A DNA stretch of 24,208 nucleotides from an uncultured bacterium (GCA_949290385.1 CASERY010000015.1:1-24208); one strand, 5' to 3'. Counted from the stretch's first letter, positions 8,544-14,925 are shown. A program made the numbers and translations. Notes: a model not told the origin generated them from the letters alone.

Positions 8544-9734
8544 TTAACTCTTCCTTCTGGAGTGTCTATAGAGAAAGAAAAGCTCCAGTGTCATACAAAC
8601 GGGAAATATTGTTGCTGCCAGTAAACCGTTTTTCAGGTCTTCTCCTGTAACTTGTGCTACTTTCCCTACTATTGCAGGGCCTACTGTTGCACCAAGATCT
8701 CCTGCCAATGCCAAAAATGCAAACATGGCGGTTCCACCGGTAGGACATTTTCGGGAAGAAAGACTGATTGTTCCAGGCCACATGATTCCAACGGCAAGTC
8801 CGCAGAGAGCACATCCGATCAATCCCAATATTGCCAAAGATGCCAAAGACGCCAATAAATAACACACGGCAGCTAGCAAACCGCATAAAAGCATTGTTTT
8901 GACCAAATTCAGTTTATCACTCATCTTCCCATACAGCATACGGGCAATTCCCATAAACGCTGCAAAAAGACACGGACCAGCCAGATCGCCAATCAATTTT
9001 GAAACTTTCAGTGCCGATTCTGTAAAAGCTGAAGCCCATTGACACATCGAAGCTTCAGATGAACCAGCACAAATCATTAAAAATATCATCATCCAGAACA
9101 TGGGAACACTCAGCAACTGACGGATATTCATACGCTTGTCGTCTTCAACAAGTTTTTCAATGGGACAGCTGATAAAATTTATGGCATTATACAAGGGGAT
9201 TAATGCCCAAAGCATCGTCATGATTTTCCAATGTTCTATGCCAAATATAGCAAAAAATAAAGTTGACCCCAGAATTACACTTACTGCTCCCCAACAATAA
9301 AAGGAATGCAATAAACTCATGATACCGTCCTTATTTTCAAAAGGACATGCTTCAACAATCGGACTTAACAGAACTTCGATTAAACCGCTTCCAATAGCAT
9401 AAAGTACCACCGATATTAAAATTCCAGTCAATGGATCCAACAATATATCCGGTAAAATCGTCAGAGACAATAGACCTGCCGATGACAAAACCTGAGAGGC
9501 AATCACACAGAGTCGATATCCAATTTTATCAGCAAATTTTGCAGCTGCTATATCTACAAGCAACTGAGTCAAATAAAAAGTCAGCGGAATCAAAGCGATC
9601 TTTTCAAGATGAACACCGTAGGTCCCTTTGAAAGTCAAGAAGAGTAAAGGCGTGAAATTTGCCTATATGGCCTGTGTTACAAATCCGAGATAACAGGCTG
9701 TCAATGTTTTTTTATAGTTTTTCTGCTTGGACAT
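8544..9734 (-). CDS. MFS transporter interrupted by one in-frame TAG at codon 24 (9663-9665); a pseudogene under the standard code, or a TAG read-through CDS
   Basis: AAGGAGA lies 5 nt before the ATG at 9734. Translation gives MSKQKNYKKTLTACYLGFVTQAI-TAG-ANFTPLLFLTFKGTYGV..., which continues in the same frame into the tracked 364-aa multi-TM ORF (8544..9638). There is no frameshift or other stop. Terminal stop is TAA. Confidence 0.8.
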
Positions 9735-9750
9735 AATATCTCCTTGTGGT

Positions 9751-9786
9751 GATTTAAATACGATGTCAGATTTAAATACAATATCA
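9751..9786. repeat. Tandem 18-bp direct repeat just upstream of the MFS start; candidate AraC-type operator
   Basis: GATTTAAATACGATGTCA (9751-9768) is followed immediately by GATTTAAATACAATATCA (9769-9786), matching at 16 of 18 positions. It lies between the AraC and MFS genes, 17-52 nt from the MFS ATG. Confidence 0.6.
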
Positions 9787-9887
9787 TAAAAAAAAGAAGG
9801 CATCAAAGCAGTAATCTGCAAAAAACAAGCACTATTTACCCAAATTACAATACTTGCGGGGGCGGAACGATAATCCCGTATCGGGTC

Positions 9888-10796
9888 TTATATGGTCCCA
9901 TTTCGATGACGGATGGATTTGAGAAACGTGGAGGGAGTAATCCCATATCGGATCTTGAACTGTCTGCGAAAATAATTTACAGAGTTGAAACCACAGGAAT
10001 TGCTGACTTCCTCAATGGTATATATTCCTTCTGCAAGCATTTTATAGGCTATCTAAAGCCTGTGCTGGATCAATATCTCAATTGGAGAACAATTCATAAG
10101 GGCCTTGAAACAGCGTCCAACTTCACTGCGGCTTACATTGGCTGTTCTGGCAAGATCTTTAAGAGAAATATGTCCGTTGTAATGAGTATAAATAAGATCA
10201 AGCATTTTTTGCAGACGTATTTGATTGATAAGTTGAATGCGATTTGATTTATACCGTGGTAAGATATTTATATTTAAATAAATATATTCAAAAATATAAC
10301 TTATATTTCTCTGGATCATCATTTCATAACATGGCGGCTGATTCCGGAAACAATGATAGATATCCTGTATAAGATTATTGATGTTTTTCAAACTTTCATT
10401 TTTATTTGAAAACACAACAAAAGGCAGATCATCACACTGTTGAAAGGGCATAATGTATTTTTTATATATTTGACTTCCTTCCGGAGCAATCAAACTTCCG
10501 GAGAAAACGATATTAGGCAATGGGTCAGCTGTATGACCGGAAATTTGTCTGATCCCGTGAAGTAGATTCCCATTGACAAAAATGCTGTCTCCGGCGTTGA
10601 GAATAATGTGTTTTTCACCGACCTGATAATCCAGGGTTTCGCTTTCTGCTGTTGCAATCTCAAATCCGGGATGCCAATGCAAAGGACCGTTCCATTGGGG
10701 TAAATTTGCCAACTCATCATGAAAGAATGAAATCGGAAAGGTCGTGGAATTGTAAGGAATTCGCTCTTTCAGTTGATAATCCATAGCTACAGACAT
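9888..10796 (-). CDS. AraC-family regulator (cupin N-domain plus double HTH) interrupted by one in-frame TAG at codon 248 (10053-10055)
   Basis: The tracked ORF 10053..10796 ends ...CSPIEILIQHRL-TAG. The same frame continues IAYKMLAEGIYTIEEVSNSCGFNSVNYFRRQFKIRYGITPSTFLKSIRHRNGTI-TAA, which is the second AraC HTH signature (GF.S..YF.R.FK...G.TP). There is no frameshift. The + strand ORF 9906..10247 is its antisense shadow. Confidence 0.85.
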
Positions 10797-12477: not shown

Positions 12478-12672
12478 AGCATATTTCCTGTTTTTATGCT
12501 TCATTTGCACTATAGCCTGTTCTTTTCATGAAATCAAGTCTTCATTTGCATCATTCTTTTCAGAAAAAGATCCTTTTTTGATTTGTGCGACATTTGTTTG
12601 GAGAGTATTTTTGAACCAGGCAGACGAAAGGCTTGTGTACAATATCCAGCAGACGACAAAGGAGATTTCAGG

Positions 12673-13692
12673 ATGAATTTCGTTTGTACAGTTTCAAAGA
12701 AATCAGATTTTAAGCAGGCAGAGAAAGAAGCATTGAAGCAAATCCGGGAAGGGCTGATTCAAGGAACGGTTTTCGGAAAGGTCGGCGGACCGCTTGCGGC
12801 GTTGGGTTTTCAGTGTGTCCATCCGCAGAAGGTGCCGATGACGGAACAGTCCCGTTTTGACATTGCTTCCGTGGGCAAGATCTTCACTGCGGCATGCTGC
12901 GCACTGCTGGCAGTGGAAGGAAAACTTGATCCTGATGCTCCTTTTACGGAATATCTTCCAGAACATATTCTTGGAAAAGACTGCAACATTACAGTTCGTG
13001 ATCTGGCCATGCACGTGGGAGGTTTTGACAATGCAAAGCCTTATAATTCTTCGGACAAAACTGTATTCCTTCATGAACTTTTTCAGAAACGACCTGTTCG
13101 TCCGCGTCTGACGGAATTTGAATATTCCTGTTCCGGCTTCATTCTGCTCGGCATGATCGTAGAACGGCTTTCCGGCACGAACCTGGAGGACTTTGCACGG
13201 AGCCGCATCTGGGCACCGCTGGGCATGAACCGGACACGATGGACTTCGCCTGGAAACGGCCTTCATGAAGTGGAACACTGGTTTCCCAACCGTGAAGCCG
13301 GACAGCATAACGATGATGTTTGTTTTAACTGCGGTTTTCCGATTGGGAGCGGAAGCTGTTTTTCCACTGCCGGAGACTTGCTGCTGTTTGCCCGGGATAT
13401 GCTGGAGCGCAGGCACTTCCCGGATCTGTACTATGAACTTCAGACACGATGCGCCTTTGAAAAAAATGGTGTCCGCCGCAGTTTTGGCTGGGATATGTCT
13501 GAAGCCCATCGCCCTGCTCATCTTTCTGATAAAACCTTCTACCATTCCGGATGGACAGGACAGTCTATCTGTATTGATCCGGAAAACGAATTTGCTGCAG
13601 TCGTTCTTACGTCCAGAACCGGCGACTGGGATGCCGCCTATGCGGGACGGGTCCATATCCTGGAGAAGCTGGTGCAATGTCATAGGAAATAA
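12673..13692 (+). CDS. Beta-lactamase-fold serine hydrolase (class C / EstB-like esterase family)
   Basis: AAGGAG lies 8 nt before the ATG at 12673. It carries the S-x-x-K nucleophile motif SVGK within FDIASVGKIFTAACCALLAVEGKLDPD, plus a C-terminal HSGWTGQS motif. It is divergent from the LacI gene. Confidence 0.8.
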   Translation: MNFVCTVSKKSDFKQAEKEALKQIREGLIQGTVFGKVGGPLAALGFQCVHPQKVPMTEQSRFDIASVGKIFTAACCALLAVEGKLDPDAPFTEYLPEHILGKDCNITVRDLAMHVGGFDNAKPYNSSDKTVFLHELFQKRPVRPRLTEFEYSCSGFILLGMIVERLSGTNLEDFARSRIWAPLGMNRTRWTSPGNGLHEVEHWFPNREAGQHNDDVCFNCGFPIGSGSCFSTAGDLLLFARDMLERRHFPDLYYELQTRCAFEKNGVRRSFGWDMSEAHRPAHLSDKTFYHSGWTGQSICIDPENEFAAVVLTSRTGDWDAAYAGRVHILEKLVQCHRK

Positions 13693-13917
13693 GCCGTTTC
13701 CGGATGCTTTCCGTTCTAGAGGGTGTTAAAATCCAGAATGCGGAACAAGATGGAGATCAAAAGATTAATGGAAAAAGTTGCTTTGATGACAGAACGGAAC
13801 TAACGCTCTGACTGACGGAGAAGTCCGCTGTGCTGCAGATCAGGATGTTTCTGAAAATAATCTGAAAATAATAAGATGGTATAACAAGCATTCTCAACAG
13901 ACAGGAGAGAACAGAAT

Positions 13918-14925
13918 ATGAAACAGGAAAAACGTGTTCTTGTACTCGGCGCAACCGGCGCCATGGGACAGTATCTTGTCCCGCGTCTTTAGGAAATGGG
14001 GTATCTTGTAGATGCCGTTTCTCTTGATGAAAAAAAAAGCGGTCTTCCCAAGGTGAATTTCATCAGGGCTGATCTTTCCAACCTGACGGTTTTGAAGGAA
14101 ATGCTCACACAGAATTATGACGGAATTGTGGATTTCATGATTTACCGTTCGGAAAGATTGCCGTATGTGCTTCCGCTTTTTCTCTCTTCCACGGATCACT
14201 ATATTTATCTTTCCAGCTATCGGATTTATGCGGATCTGGAGCATCCTGTCCGTGAGGAATCGCCGCGTCTGATTGATGCATCTGAAGACGTTCTTTTGCG
14301 CAATTCGGACGATTACTGCATTTTCAAAGCACGTGGTGAAAACATTGTCCGGAGTATTTCTCCGAGAAAAAACTGGACCATTATCCGCCCTGCCATCACC
14401 TATTCGTTCATGCGCTATCAGCTTGTGACTCTGGAAGCGCATAACACTGTTGGGCGTGCATTTACCCATCGGAAAGTCGTTCTTCCGGAACAGGCAAAAA
14501 ACGTGGATGCCACGATGAGCTGGGCAGGAGATGCCGCACAGATGATTTCGCTTCTTCTGTTTAATGAGAAGGCGCGCGGTGAAACCTTCAGTATAACCAC
14601 TTCCGAACATCACACCTGGGGTGAAATTGCTGAATATTACAGGCAAATCTGTGGATTGGAAGCGGTCTGGGTGGACAAGGAGGAATATCTGAAAATTCTC
14701 TGTTCCGATCCGTATGTGCACGGTCCCCGGTGGCAGCTGGAATATGACCGGCTTTTCCGCAGAATCATGGACAACAGCAAGGTCCTTGCTGCAACGGGAC
14801 TCTCTCAGAGCGATCTGAAACCGCTTTATGACGGTTTGGAACTGGAAATCTCCCGCTGTCCAAAGGATTTCCCGTGGAACCCCAGTCCGGCGATGGACTC
14901 ATTCCTGGAAAGAAATCATTTATGA
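13918..14925 (+). CDS. NAD-dependent epimerase/dehydratase (extended SDR) interrupted by one in-frame TAG at codon 25 (13990-13992)
   Basis: AGGAGA lies 9 nt before the ATG at 13918. Translation gives MKQEKRVLVLGATGAMGQYLVPRL-TAG-EMGYLVDAVSLDEKK.... The Rossmann GxxGxxG motif lies upstream of the TAG, and the rest of the domain is the tracked ORF 13996..14925 in the same frame. Terminal stop is TGA. Confidence 0.85.

What the first reader, a model, noticed from the sequence alone, without database searches (positions are those of the whole stretch)
9663..13992. Three intact-looking genes each carry exactly one in-frame TAG: candidate amber read-through or codon reassignment versus triple pseudogenisation
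**What the sequence shows**
- The MFS transporter has TAG at codon 24, the AraC regulator at codon 248, and the extended SDR at codon 25.
- In all three the conserved family sequence continues in the same frame on both sides of the TAG. The SDR GxxGxxG motif lies before the TAG and the second AraC HTH lies after it.
- All three have good RBS and ATG starts.
- None has a frameshift, a TAA or a TGA interruption.
- Terminal stops across my 19 CDS calls are 9 TAA, 9 TGA and 1 TAG. The single terminal TAG (flotillin) has an in-frame TGA 10 codons later.

**How to weigh it**
- If nonsense hits were spread evenly over the three stop codons, all three being the same codon would be 1 in 9, and all three being TAG would be 1 in 27.
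- CAG->TAG and TGG->TAG transitions bias that estimate, so this is suggestive only.
- Chromosomal bacterial TAG-as-sense outside Pyl methyltransferase genes would be unusual. Known amber recoding is mainly in phages and in Pyl users.

**Alternative explanation**
- These may be three recent independent nonsense pseudogenes in accessory genes.
Basis: partly seen in the sequence, partly recalled or inferred. Interest (0 to 1): 0.85.

Follow-up and report, generated by a model that had tools for sequence, protein, structure and literature searches.

The report
Gut bacterium reads TAG as sense
The three "broken" genes are intact: this uncultured gut Lentisphaeria bacterium carries in-frame TAG codons in about a third of its genes, essential ones included. 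TAG therefore seems to be translated rather than to stop translation, which I did not find described for any bacterial chromosome.

Summary
All three in-frame TAGs are real. They sit at the stated coordinates, inside Pfam domains that continue in the same frame.

**Not errors or recent accidents**
- Every same-species contig I could fetch carries them. These come from at least 10 metagenome samples and are 97.8-99.9% identical.
- Polymorphisms that arose in TAG-bearing strains are coding-like: 25 synonymous to 8 non-synonymous, P<1e-6 against neutrality. This matches the neighbouring genes.
- No gene has an indel.

**Genome-wide pattern**
- I walked about 60 kb beyond the window on same-species contigs.
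- 56 genes contain 28 in-frame TAGs, spread over 20 genes.
- Affected genes include UppS, CdsA, RNase Y, RlmN, RecF, BioD and ComM.
- There is no in-frame TAA, no in-frame TGA and no frameshift.
- At most one gene ends in TAG.
- About 400 kb from related species shows one credible in-frame stop, and those species use TAG as a terminator.

**Conclusion**
- TAG is a sense codon, or is very efficiently suppressed, in this species. Triple pseudogenisation is rejected.
- The inserted amino acid is unresolved. Homologues show Ala, Ser/Thr, Gln or Lys at the TAG positions.
- No CUA-anticodon tRNA lies in the 85 kb examined.
- RF1 and pyl genes could not be tested.

The parts
8544..9734 (-). MFS transporter gene, 396 codons, intact if TAG is read as sense. 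The in-frame TAG is codon 24 at 9663-9665, in the first transmembrane helix (FVTQAI-X-ANFTPLLF).
   Evidence: Translation. Pfam MFS_1 covers residues 16-353 across the TAG. Homologues have Ser (102) or Thr (17) at this column. The closest orthologue, L041, has TCG. The TAG is present in all 5 strain contigs. Polymorphism is 5 synonymous to 3 non-synonymous.
9888..10796 (-). AraC-family regulator gene, 302 codons. The in-frame TAG is codon 248 at 10053-10055, between the two HTH motifs.
   Evidence: Translation. HTH_18 covers 215-293 across the TAG. Homologues have Gln in 111 of 119 sequences. Orthologues have CAG. The TAG is present in 6 of 6 strain contigs. Polymorphism is 5 synonymous to 1 non-synonymous, with variable sites 36 and 47 nt either side of the TAG.
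13918..14925 (+). Extended SDR/epimerase gene, 335 codons. The in-frame TAG is codon 25 at 13990-13992, just after the GATGAMG NAD-binding motif.
   Evidence: Translation. Pfam Epimerase covers 7-72 across the TAG. Homologues have Ala in 114 of 119 sequences. Relatives mostly have GCG, so two base changes were needed. The TAG is present in 7 of 7 strain contigs, including ones only 97.8% identical. Polymorphism is 15 synonymous to 4 non-synonymous, with one synonymous change upstream of the TAG.
3121..3153 (+). The only TAG that ends a gene call in the window (flotillin, 3121-3123). If TAG is sense, the protein gains 10 residues: the decoded TAG plus TEKTVSANA. It would then end at TGA 3151-3153.
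   Evidence: The TAG is conserved in L004 and L005. Whether the extension is made was not tested.
15370..15372 (+). GFO/IDH/MocA oxidoreductase codon 137. It is CAG (Gln) in the window and TAG in strain L063, so this is a within-species CAG/TAG polymorphism at a conserved Gln.
   Evidence: The column is Q in 14 of 19 related sequences and K, R or S in the rest, inside the motif MFRGNPAFQFC.
2..280 (+). 3' end of the ComM/YifB gene. Its upstream part lies outside the window, on same-species contig L050, and carries an in-frame TAG at codon 153.
   Evidence: L050 8261-9796 translates to 511 residues in one frame with a single TAG. Pfam ChlI covers 21-145 and Mg_chelatase covers 197-403. L050 overlaps window 1-1372 at 99.85% identity.

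Best explanation
In this uncultured gut Lentisphaeria (Victivallales) species, TAG is translated as an amino acid throughout the genome instead of ending translation. The MFS transporter, the AraC regulator and the SDR are therefore ordinary full-length functional genes.

**Shown**
- In-frame TAGs are frequent: 1.45 per 1000 codons, in 36% of genes.
- They occur in essential and housekeeping genes.
- They are conserved in every sampled strain.
- They are the only kind of interruption found.
- They sit in genes that are still under purifying selection.

**Inferred**
- The codon is read by a tRNA that pairs with UAG. This could be a dedicated CUA-anticodon tRNA or near-cognate tRNAs.
- Release factor 1 is lost, weakened or out-competed.
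- New TAGs then arise by ordinary point mutation from CAG, TCG, AAG and similar codons. They persist wherever the inserted residue is tolerated.

**Identity of the inserted residue (my own rough odds, not computed)**

| Candidate | Odds |
|---|---|
| Pyrrolysine or another non-standard residue | 0.35 |
| Gln | 0.25 |
| Another standard residue (Ser, Leu or Ala type) | 0.25 |
| Mixed near-cognate insertion | 0.15 |
For: **The sites are real and stable**
- Each of the three window TAGs is present in all 5-7 same-species contigs that cover it. Together these contigs come from at least 10 samples in several projects and are 97.8-99.9% identical.
- The truncated protein pieces recur widely. The RNase Y N-terminal piece is on 26 contigs and the ComM piece on 10.

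**Selection continues after the TAGs arose**
- The three window genes have 25 synonymous to 8 non-synonymous polymorphisms, and 25 of the 33 fall at third codon positions.
- The neutral expectation is 29-34% synonymous, giving P from 3e-8 to 9e-7.
- Other window genes have 66:26, Fisher P=0.82.
- Pooled over all sampled genes, TAG genes have 64:29 and the others 97:44.
- No alignment of any sampled gene to another strain contig contains a gap. In the window, every indel between strains is intergenic.

**The pattern is genome-wide**
- About 60 kb of flanking same-species sequence was examined: L050, L043, L066, L069, L072 and L075.
- 56 genes hold 28 in-frame TAGs in 20 genes, and no in-frame TAA or TGA.
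- Pfam domains span or flank the TAGs in RNase Y, ComM, the GntR-PBP regulator and Nnr.
- PDB alignments run through the TAGs in UppS, BioD, ComM, Nnr and the antiporter-like subunit.
- UppS, CdsA and RNase Y are usually indispensable. That statement is general knowledge.

**Contrast with relatives**
- About 400 kb from related species yields one credible in-frame stop.
- Orthologues of SDR, MFS, AraC and RNase Y there are uninterrupted.

**TAG is hardly used as a terminator**
- 1 of 56 genes here, against 27 of 315 in relatives.
Against: - No CUA-anticodon tRNA was found in the roughly 85 kb examined. Nothing could be learned about prfA or the pyl genes.
- The homologous residues at TAG positions do not agree. 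They are Ala 96%, Ser/Thr 100%, Gln 93%, a conserved Lys, and several variable polar columns. No single standard amino acid is supported.
- The depletion of terminal TAG is weak statistically: binomial P=0.04, Fisher P=0.10.
- Several N-terminal TAGs might lie upstream of the true start codon: CdsA codons 17 and 44, the small TM protein codon 26 and HyfB-like codon 39.
- Outside the window, several TAGs rest on only one or two contigs.
- There is no protein-level evidence.
Confidence: 0.72

Rival explanations
1. Ambiguous code, a weaker form of the main explanation. TAG is still recognised by RF1 as a stop but is suppressed at useful efficiency. The suppressor could be a tRNA carried on a prophage or plasmid, or the pyrrolysine machinery switched on under some conditions. 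Each TAG-containing gene would then give a mix of truncated and full-length protein.
For: - One gene (flotillin) still appears to end at TAG, with a back-up TGA 10 codons later.
- The decline in terminal TAG use is only marginally significant.
- Relatives already use TAG rarely, at 8.6% of genes, which would make suppression tolerable.
- Archaea that encode pyrrolysine are reported to keep amber usage ambiguous (PMC12626013, abstract as listed).
Against: - About 36% of genes carry TAGs, including UppS, CdsA and RNase Y, and some carry two or three each.
- Partial read-through would multiply the losses in genes with several TAGs, such as the antiporter-like, HyfB-like and GT-like genes.
- Selection on TAG genes is as strong as on other genes.
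Confidence: 0.18
2. Ordinary nonsense pseudogenes. The three genes, and the others found, would be dead or dying genes in a decaying genome.
For: - Two of the three window TAGs are one step from the orthologous codon: TCG to TAG and CAG to TAG. That is how nonsense mutations arise.
- MFS and AraC form an accessory module that was acquired horizontally.
- Related species gain and lose blac and SDR-GFO.
Against: - All 28 interruptions are TAG. None is TAA or TGA and there are no frameshifts.
- The substitution pattern is that of coding sequence under purifying selection, and these polymorphisms arose after the TAGs.
- Every TAG that interrupts a gene in the reference set is present in every strain contig that covers it.
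- Essential genes are affected.
- The SDR TAG needs two base changes from the ancestral GCG.
Confidence: 0.03
3. Split or truncated proteins that still work. Translation would stop at TAG and restart just downstream, or the shorter products would be enough. In the SDR, for example, an ATG lies 3 nt after the TAG (TAGGAAATG).
For: - The SDR has ATG 13996 immediately after the TAG.
- Gene callers produce plausible downstream ORFs: 309, 364 and 399 residues, among others.
Against: - The restarted SDR would lose its NAD-binding GxxGxxG motif, the MFS its first transmembrane helix, and AraC its second HTH.
- RlmN has no start codon between its TAG and the conserved FRASQIYSW motif.
- The antiporter-like, UppS and BioD TAGs cut through single compact domains.
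- Twenty genes all finding workable split forms, and always at TAG, is implausible.
Confidence: 0.04
4. Sequencing, assembly or binning artefact, or contamination by a TAG-recoded phage.
For: Nothing specific. Gut phages that read TAG as Gln do exist (PMC9523058).
Against: - The same TAGs appear in independent assemblies, whose contig names show at least three naming styles (k87/k141, NODE, scaffold), and in Logan contigs, from at least 10 samples.
- The strains differ at other positions.
- The gene content is chromosomal: dnaN-recF, uppS-cdsA, bioABD, rny and rlmN. It is syntenic with Lentisphaeria genomes assembled from metagenomes.
Confidence: 0.01

Closest known systems
Genetic Code 34: genome-wide TAG to pyrrolysine in some archaea (Kivenson et al., bioRxiv 10.1101/2024.09.30.615893)
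   Same: - Internal in-frame TAGs occur in many unrelated protein families.
- Annotation pipelines report the genes as fragments.
- TAG is little used as a terminator.
   Different: - That code is described as currently confined to archaea.
- It is defined by the Pyl machinery and by proteomic proof, and neither could be tested here.
- The density here, 20 of 56 sampled genes, looks far higher than in that paper, whose largest count for one organism is 191 predicted Pyl proteins. The two figures are measured differently.
Genetic code 15: TAG to Gln in gut phages (crAss-like, Lak and others), using suppressor tRNAs (PMC9523058; bioRxiv 10.1101/2021.08.26.457843)
   Same: - The same codon and the same habitat, the animal gut.
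- Four of the TAG positions with known counterparts correspond to Gln/CAG: AraC, RNase Y, GFO codon 137 and antiporter codon 456.
   Different: - Here the recoded genome is a bacterial chromosome, not a phage. The hosts of such phages are described as using the standard code.
- Other TAG positions correspond to conserved Ala, Ser/Thr or Lys.
- TAG surroundings are much more hydrophobic than those of Gln, P=0.002.
Bacterial stop-codon reassignments, codes 4 and 25: UGA to Trp or Gly in Mycoplasmatota, endosymbionts, Absconditabacteria/Gracilibacteria and Eggerthellaceae (PMC8629427; PMC13462651)
   Same: A whole bacterial lineage reads a former stop codon as sense. In those cases the change goes with loss of the matching release factor and a cognate tRNA.
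   Different: - Those papers describe the known bacterial stop-codon changes as affecting UGA and RF2 (abstracts).
- This case affects UAG, so presumably RF1.
- It appears confined to one species-level lineage, because close relatives still terminate at TAG.
Pyrrolysine-using bacteria such as Desulfitobacterium, Acetohalobium and Bilophila (from my own knowledge)
   Same: These are bacteria that can translate UAG.
   Different: In them, in-frame TAG is essentially limited to methylamine methyltransferase genes, and TAG stays an ordinary stop elsewhere. Here the TAGs are spread over unrelated housekeeping genes.
Sporadic conserved in-frame stops interpreted as read-through in prokaryotes (Belinky et al. 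2021, PMC7918605)
   Same: In-frame TAG/CAG alternation in orthologues, with dN/dS below 1.
   Different: Those are isolated, short-lived cases in genomes that use the standard code. Here a third of the genes are affected, and only by TAG.

Membership tests
Stop-codon reassignment (TAG as a sense codon) | In-frame TAG inside conserved domains of many unrelated, otherwise intact genes | tested here: met
   28 TAGs in 20 of 56 genes. Pfam or PDB alignments continue across them.
Stop-codon reassignment (TAG as a sense codon) | Only the reassigned stop interrupts genes; there are no frameshifts or other stops | tested here: met
   No in-frame TAA or TGA. No alignment of any sampled gene to another strain contig contains a gap.
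Stop-codon reassignment (TAG as a sense codon) | Genes that contain the codon stay under purifying selection | tested here: met
   25 synonymous to 8 non-synonymous, P<1e-6 against neutrality. Pooled 64:29 against 97:44 in other genes.
Stop-codon reassignment (TAG as a sense codon) | The codon is no longer used to terminate genes | tested here: inconclusive
   1 of 56 genes (flotillin, with TGA 10 codons later) against 27 of 315 in relatives. Binomial P=0.04, Fisher P=0.10.
Stop-codon reassignment (TAG as a sense codon) | A tRNA that reads UAG (CUA anticodon) | not testable with these tools
   None in about 85 kb. Only tRNA-Pro(CGG) and tRNA-Gly(GCC) were found.
Stop-codon reassignment (TAG as a sense codon) | Loss or alteration of release factor 1 (prfA) | not testable with these tools
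   prfA is not in the sequence obtained.
Stop-codon reassignment (TAG as a sense codon) | One consistent amino acid at the homologous positions (Codetta-type inference) | tested here: not met
   Ala 96% (SDR), Ser/Thr (MFS), Gln 93% (AraC), Gln (RNase Y, GFO), Lys/Glu (antiporter), Ser/Arg (UppS), Glu/Thr/Asn (BioD). Inference from sequence context is weak.
Genetic Code 34 (TAG to pyrrolysine) | pylT and pylSBCD present | not testable with these tools
   Not in the sequence obtained.
Genetic Code 34 (TAG to pyrrolysine) | TAG replaces diverse residues with no consensus | tested here: met
   See the columns listed above. The paper describes this feature in the passage shown.
Genetic code 15 (TAG to Gln) | TAG positions correspond mainly to Gln in homologues | tested here: inconclusive
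   Gln/CAG at 4 sites, two of which are within-species CAG/TAG polymorphisms. Conserved Ala, Ser/Thr and Lys occur at other sites. TAG contexts differ from Gln contexts, P=0.002.
Nonsense pseudogenes | Relaxed selection, mixed types of lesion, variation between strains | tested here: not met

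The most novel reading that the evidence does not exclude
A bacterium has turned TAG into a codon for pyrrolysine or another non-standard residue across its whole proteome. Roughly one protein in three would carry it, including essential enzymes and membrane proteins. That would be the first bacterial counterpart of archaeal Code 34, at a much higher density, and would imply a natural amber-decoding tRNA/synthetase pair that works efficiently at many sites.
Probability: 0.3. Interest if true: 0.97.

Novelty: new variant of a known kind. 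Interest (0 to 1): 0.9.

Why it matters
**For the genetic code**
- In the papers I read, every natural bacterial stop-codon change affects UGA. TAG recoding is reported only for phages, some archaea and eukaryotes.
- A bacterial chromosome that reads TAG as sense would add a new bacterial genetic code.
- Close relatives still use TAG as a stop. The transition is therefore recent and can be dissected step by step: tRNA gain, the fate of RF1, loss of terminal TAGs and spread of internal TAGs.

**For databases**
- Public databases currently hold this organism's proteins as fragments. The 247-, 309- and 364-residue pieces of the three window genes are examples.
- Gene calls, completeness estimates and metabolic reconstructions for this lineage are therefore wrong.

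**For ecology**
- A private codon would limit gene exchange and shape which phages can infect the host.

**For technology**
- The decoding system may be a naturally efficient amber-suppression pair.

Tried and rejected
**Approaches that gave little**
- All-against-all tblastn, meant to count in-frame stops in about 400 kb of related loci. It was swamped by alignments of non-coding antisense reading frames. After filtering, every remaining candidate was such an alignment.
- A scan for ORFs extended by reading one stop codon as sense. In relatives it mostly merged neighbouring genes. Only the L009 rhamnosidase survived inspection.
- Long-range dN/dS against intact orthologues: SDR 0.075, MFS 0.08-0.135, AraC 0.13. 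These show long-term constraint but cannot date the TAGs. The within-species polymorphism data were needed instead.

**Attempts to name the amino acid**
- A naive-Bayes test on neighbouring residues ranks Ala, Gly and Leu first, but the method has low power. In controls it recovers the true residue as top hit only 2-60% of the time.
- Hydropathy of the surroundings shows TAG sites are more hydrophobic than those of any of the 20 amino acids. Gene sampling confounds this, because the sample includes a membrane hydrogenase operon.
- PDB alignments for Nnr, ComM, UppS and BioD land on variable columns.

**Searches that found nothing**
- No shared sequence motif or fixed following base around the TAGs.
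- No Rfam family besides tRNA-Pro in 68 kb.
- Literature searches linking Lentisphaerae or Victivallales to stop-codon reassignment, genetic code or pyrrolysine found nothing relevant.

**Access limits**
I got round this by first obtaining protein ids from the cluster look-up.

Full report
**1.

| Gene | Strand | Start | Stop | TAG codon | TAG position |
|---|---|---|---|---|---|
| MFS transporter | minus | ATG 9734 | TAA 8544-8546 | 24 | 9663-9665 |
| AraC regulator | minus | ATG 10796 | TAA 9888-9890 | 248 | 10053-10055 |
| Extended SDR | plus | ATG 13918 | TGA 14923-14925 | 25 | 13990-13992 |

- Pfam domains run across each TAG in the same frame: MFS_1 16-353, HTH_18 215-293 and Epimerase 7-72.
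- None of the three genes has any other stop or a frameshift.
- Terminal stops of the window's genes are 9 TAA, 9 TGA and 1 TAG.
- The one terminal TAG (flotillin, 3121-3123) is followed by TGA ten codons later.

**2. Organism**

- Related loci come from uncultured gut Lentisphaeria/Victivallales genomes assembled from metagenomes.
- The window is itself a complete 24,208-nt contig held in NCBI and ENA.
- The closest species in the genome collection is only 85-87% identical at protein level (L009).

**3. The TAGs are not errors and not private to one strain**

- Exact-protein look-ups returned same-species contigs from many independent assemblies and samples. These include ERZ17292901-05, ERZ11466792, ERR14721045, ERZ28564513, ERZ945771 and ERZ27250291.
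- The contigs are 97.8-99.9% identical to the window.
- All of them carry the TAGs: MFS 5 of 5, AraC 6 of 6, SDR 7 of 7.
- No full-length protein at least 91% identical to any of the three genes exists in the 5.8-billion-protein collection. Only the truncated pieces do.

**4. Which residues the TAGs replace**

- In homologues the TAG columns are Ala (114 of 119, SDR), Ser or Thr (102 and 17, MFS) and Gln (111 of 119, AraC).
- The nearest orthologous codons are GCG, TCG and CAG.
- Two of the TAGs are therefore one mutation away. The SDR TAG needs two.

**5. The genes are still under selection**

All sampled strains share the TAGs, and variable sites lie within 36-47 nt of the AraC TAG. The polymorphisms therefore post-date the TAGs.

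- The three genes have 25 synonymous and 8 non-synonymous differences, and 25 of the 33 are at third codon positions.
- Random mutation with the observed transition bias would give 29-34% synonymous. This yields P from 3e-8 to 9e-7.
- The other window genes have 66:26, which is not distinguishable (Fisher P=0.82).
- In the window, every indel between strains is intergenic.
- One synonymous change lies upstream of the SDR TAG.
- Long-term dN/dS against intact orthologues is 0.075-0.135, like the neighbouring genes.

**6. The decisive step: the surrounding genome**

Contigs that extend past both ends of the window (L050, L043) showed four more genes split by a single TAG in one frame. Pfam confirmed each of them.

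- RNase Y, codon 78
- ComM, codon 153
- a GntR-PBP regulator, codon 226
- Nnr, codon 377

I used cluster look-ups to obtain usable protein ids. With these I walked about 60 kb in total beyond the window, through L066, L069, L072 and L075.

The census covers 56 complete genes and 19,335 codons.

- There are 28 in-frame TAGs in 20 genes.
- There is no in-frame TAA or TGA.
- No alignment of any gene to another strain contig contains a gap.

Affected genes include:

- UppS (codon 83) and CdsA
- RlmN, whose TAG lies upstream of the conserved FRASQIYSW motif with no intervening start codon
- RecF, BioD and a LexA-like protein
- an ABC permease, whose conserved C-terminus IYLGIVIVLTWLLGKLERRL follows the TAG
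- several subunits of a membrane hydrogenase-like complex

In the reference set, every TAG site that another strain contig covers (1-7 contigs per site) is TAG in all of them. The fragments also recur on many further contigs. Twenty-eight of 28 interruptions being TAG has probability 4e-14 if the three stops were equally likely.

**7. Controls in relatives**

- About 400 kb from 27 related loci contains 315 long ORFs that end in TGA (197), TAA (91) or TAG (27, 8.6%).
- After filtering, the all-against-all search left only alignments of non-coding antisense reading frames.
- The one credible in-frame stop came from the extended-ORF scan. It is a TAG in a rhamnosidase of L009, inside the Bac_rhamnosid6H domain.
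- From my recollection of the family motif, that TAG sits at a Trp position.
- L009 ends its DHQ gene with TAG. In L041, the called NusG gene is 192 residues and a TAG sits at codon 193 of its ORF. Relatives therefore use TAG as a terminator.
- Orthologues of RNase Y in ten related metagenome loci are uninterrupted. The closest, at 84% identity, has CAG at the TAG position.
- In the species studied here, at most 1 of 56 genes ends in TAG (binomial P=0.04, Fisher P=0.10).

**8. Interpretation**

- Pseudogenisation, assembly error and phage contamination do not fit these facts.
- Functional split proteins are implausible for 20 genes that are cut only at TAG, often through single domains or ahead of essential motifs.
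- The supported reading is that TAG is translated genome-wide in this species.
- How this happens is inferred, not shown. It could be a CUA-anticodon tRNA, near-cognate reading after RF1 loss, or the pyrrolysine machinery.
- No such tRNA lies in the roughly 85 kb examined. prfA and the pyl genes were out of reach.

**9. Which amino acid?**

This is unresolved.

*In favour of Gln*
- AraC and RNase Y correspond to CAG.
- Both within-species TAG/sense polymorphisms are CAG/TAG. One is GFO codon 137, a conserved Gln. The other is antiporter codon 456.

*Against Gln*
- Conserved Ala (SDR) and Ser/Thr (MFS) were replaced.
- Antiporter codon 236 aligns with the Lys of plant Nad2 in the motif preceding PFHxWLPD. 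From my own knowledge this is the conserved TM7 lysine. It is Glu in the Pyrococcus MBS subunit.
- TAG sites sit in more hydrophobic surroundings than Gln (P=0.002). They are also more hydrophobic than those of any of the 20 amino acids (P from 0.036 to 0.0002).
- By my rough rate estimate, a Gln code should give about 90% Gln columns. The observed share is about half.

*Other considerations*
- The lack of consensus is how the Code 34 paper describes TAG to pyrrolysine.
- Mixed near-cognate insertion would give the same lack of consensus.
- Context-based inference has low power.

**10. Comparison with what is known**

- In the papers I read, natural bacterial stop-codon changes all concern UGA (PMC8629427; PMC13462651 and the gTranslate preprint).
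- TAG recoding is described for gut phages as Gln (code 15, PMC9523058). It is described for some archaea as pyrrolysine (Code 34), a code stated to be currently confined to archaea.
- My literature searches found nothing that links Lentisphaerae or Victivallales to recoding.
- I therefore rate this a new variant of a known kind, of high interest.
- The caveat is that the evidence is genomic only, and the decoding machinery has not been seen.

Noticed in passing
window 8544-10796, with tRNA-Pro at 8006-8084; compare L061 8952-11718: The AraC-MFS pair has lower GC (0.36-0.38) than its surroundings. It is absent from the syntenic loci of close relatives. It is 86-91% identical to pairs in other genomic contexts, including a Victivallis sp. 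genome whose LacI is only 55% identical. A tRNA-Pro gene lies just downstream of the MFS gene both here (CGG anticodon) and in that Victivallis locus (GGG anticodon). This looks like a horizontally moved module that gained its TAGs after arrival.
   Followed up: partly
window 2122-2417: The flotillin (Band_7) gene contains 4.5 tandem copies of a 66-nt unit, which encodes the repeated peptide AEAAALSGEAEADKQRRIAVKQ. Most of the synonymous polymorphisms in this gene lie inside the repeat.
   Followed up: no
L009 508-2922: The closest related species in the genome collection has an alpha-L-rhamnosidase with one in-frame TAG inside the Bac_rhamnosid6H domain. From my recollection of the family motif it sits at a Trp position. 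The same locus ends its DHQ gene with TAG. Either this is a lone pseudogene, or that species is at an early stage of the same change.
   Followed up: partly
window end 24208; L001 10502-10577; L043 1814-1889: The window and several same-species contigs break at or near a tRNA-Gly(GCC) gene. At the left end the contigs break inside ComM.
   Followed up: no
L050 about 1940-3625 (left of the window): About 1.7 kb between the GntR-PBP regulator and the 5-FTHF cyclo-ligase gene has only short ORFs, even when TAG is read as sense. It has no Rfam match.
   Followed up: no
window 10797-11514 and other intergenic stretches: Intergenic DNA carries 85 of the 210 substitutions seen between strains in the window, and all of the window's indels. 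The AraC-LacI spacer is especially variable.
   Followed up: no
all 27 TAG sites listed (window, L050, L066, L069, L072, L075): TAG codons sit in more hydrophobic sequence surroundings than any of the 20 standard amino acids in the same proteins. A third of them lie in membrane-helix-like contexts. The cause is not explained. It may reflect which genes were sampled, or the nature of the inserted residue.
   Followed up: partly
protein collection entries P0001, P0122, P0245 and P0376-P0463: Public protein collections hold this species' TAG-containing genes as separate truncated proteins. Examples are RNase Y as 77 + 399 residues, ComM as 152 + 344, and UppS as 82 + 151.
   Followed up: yes
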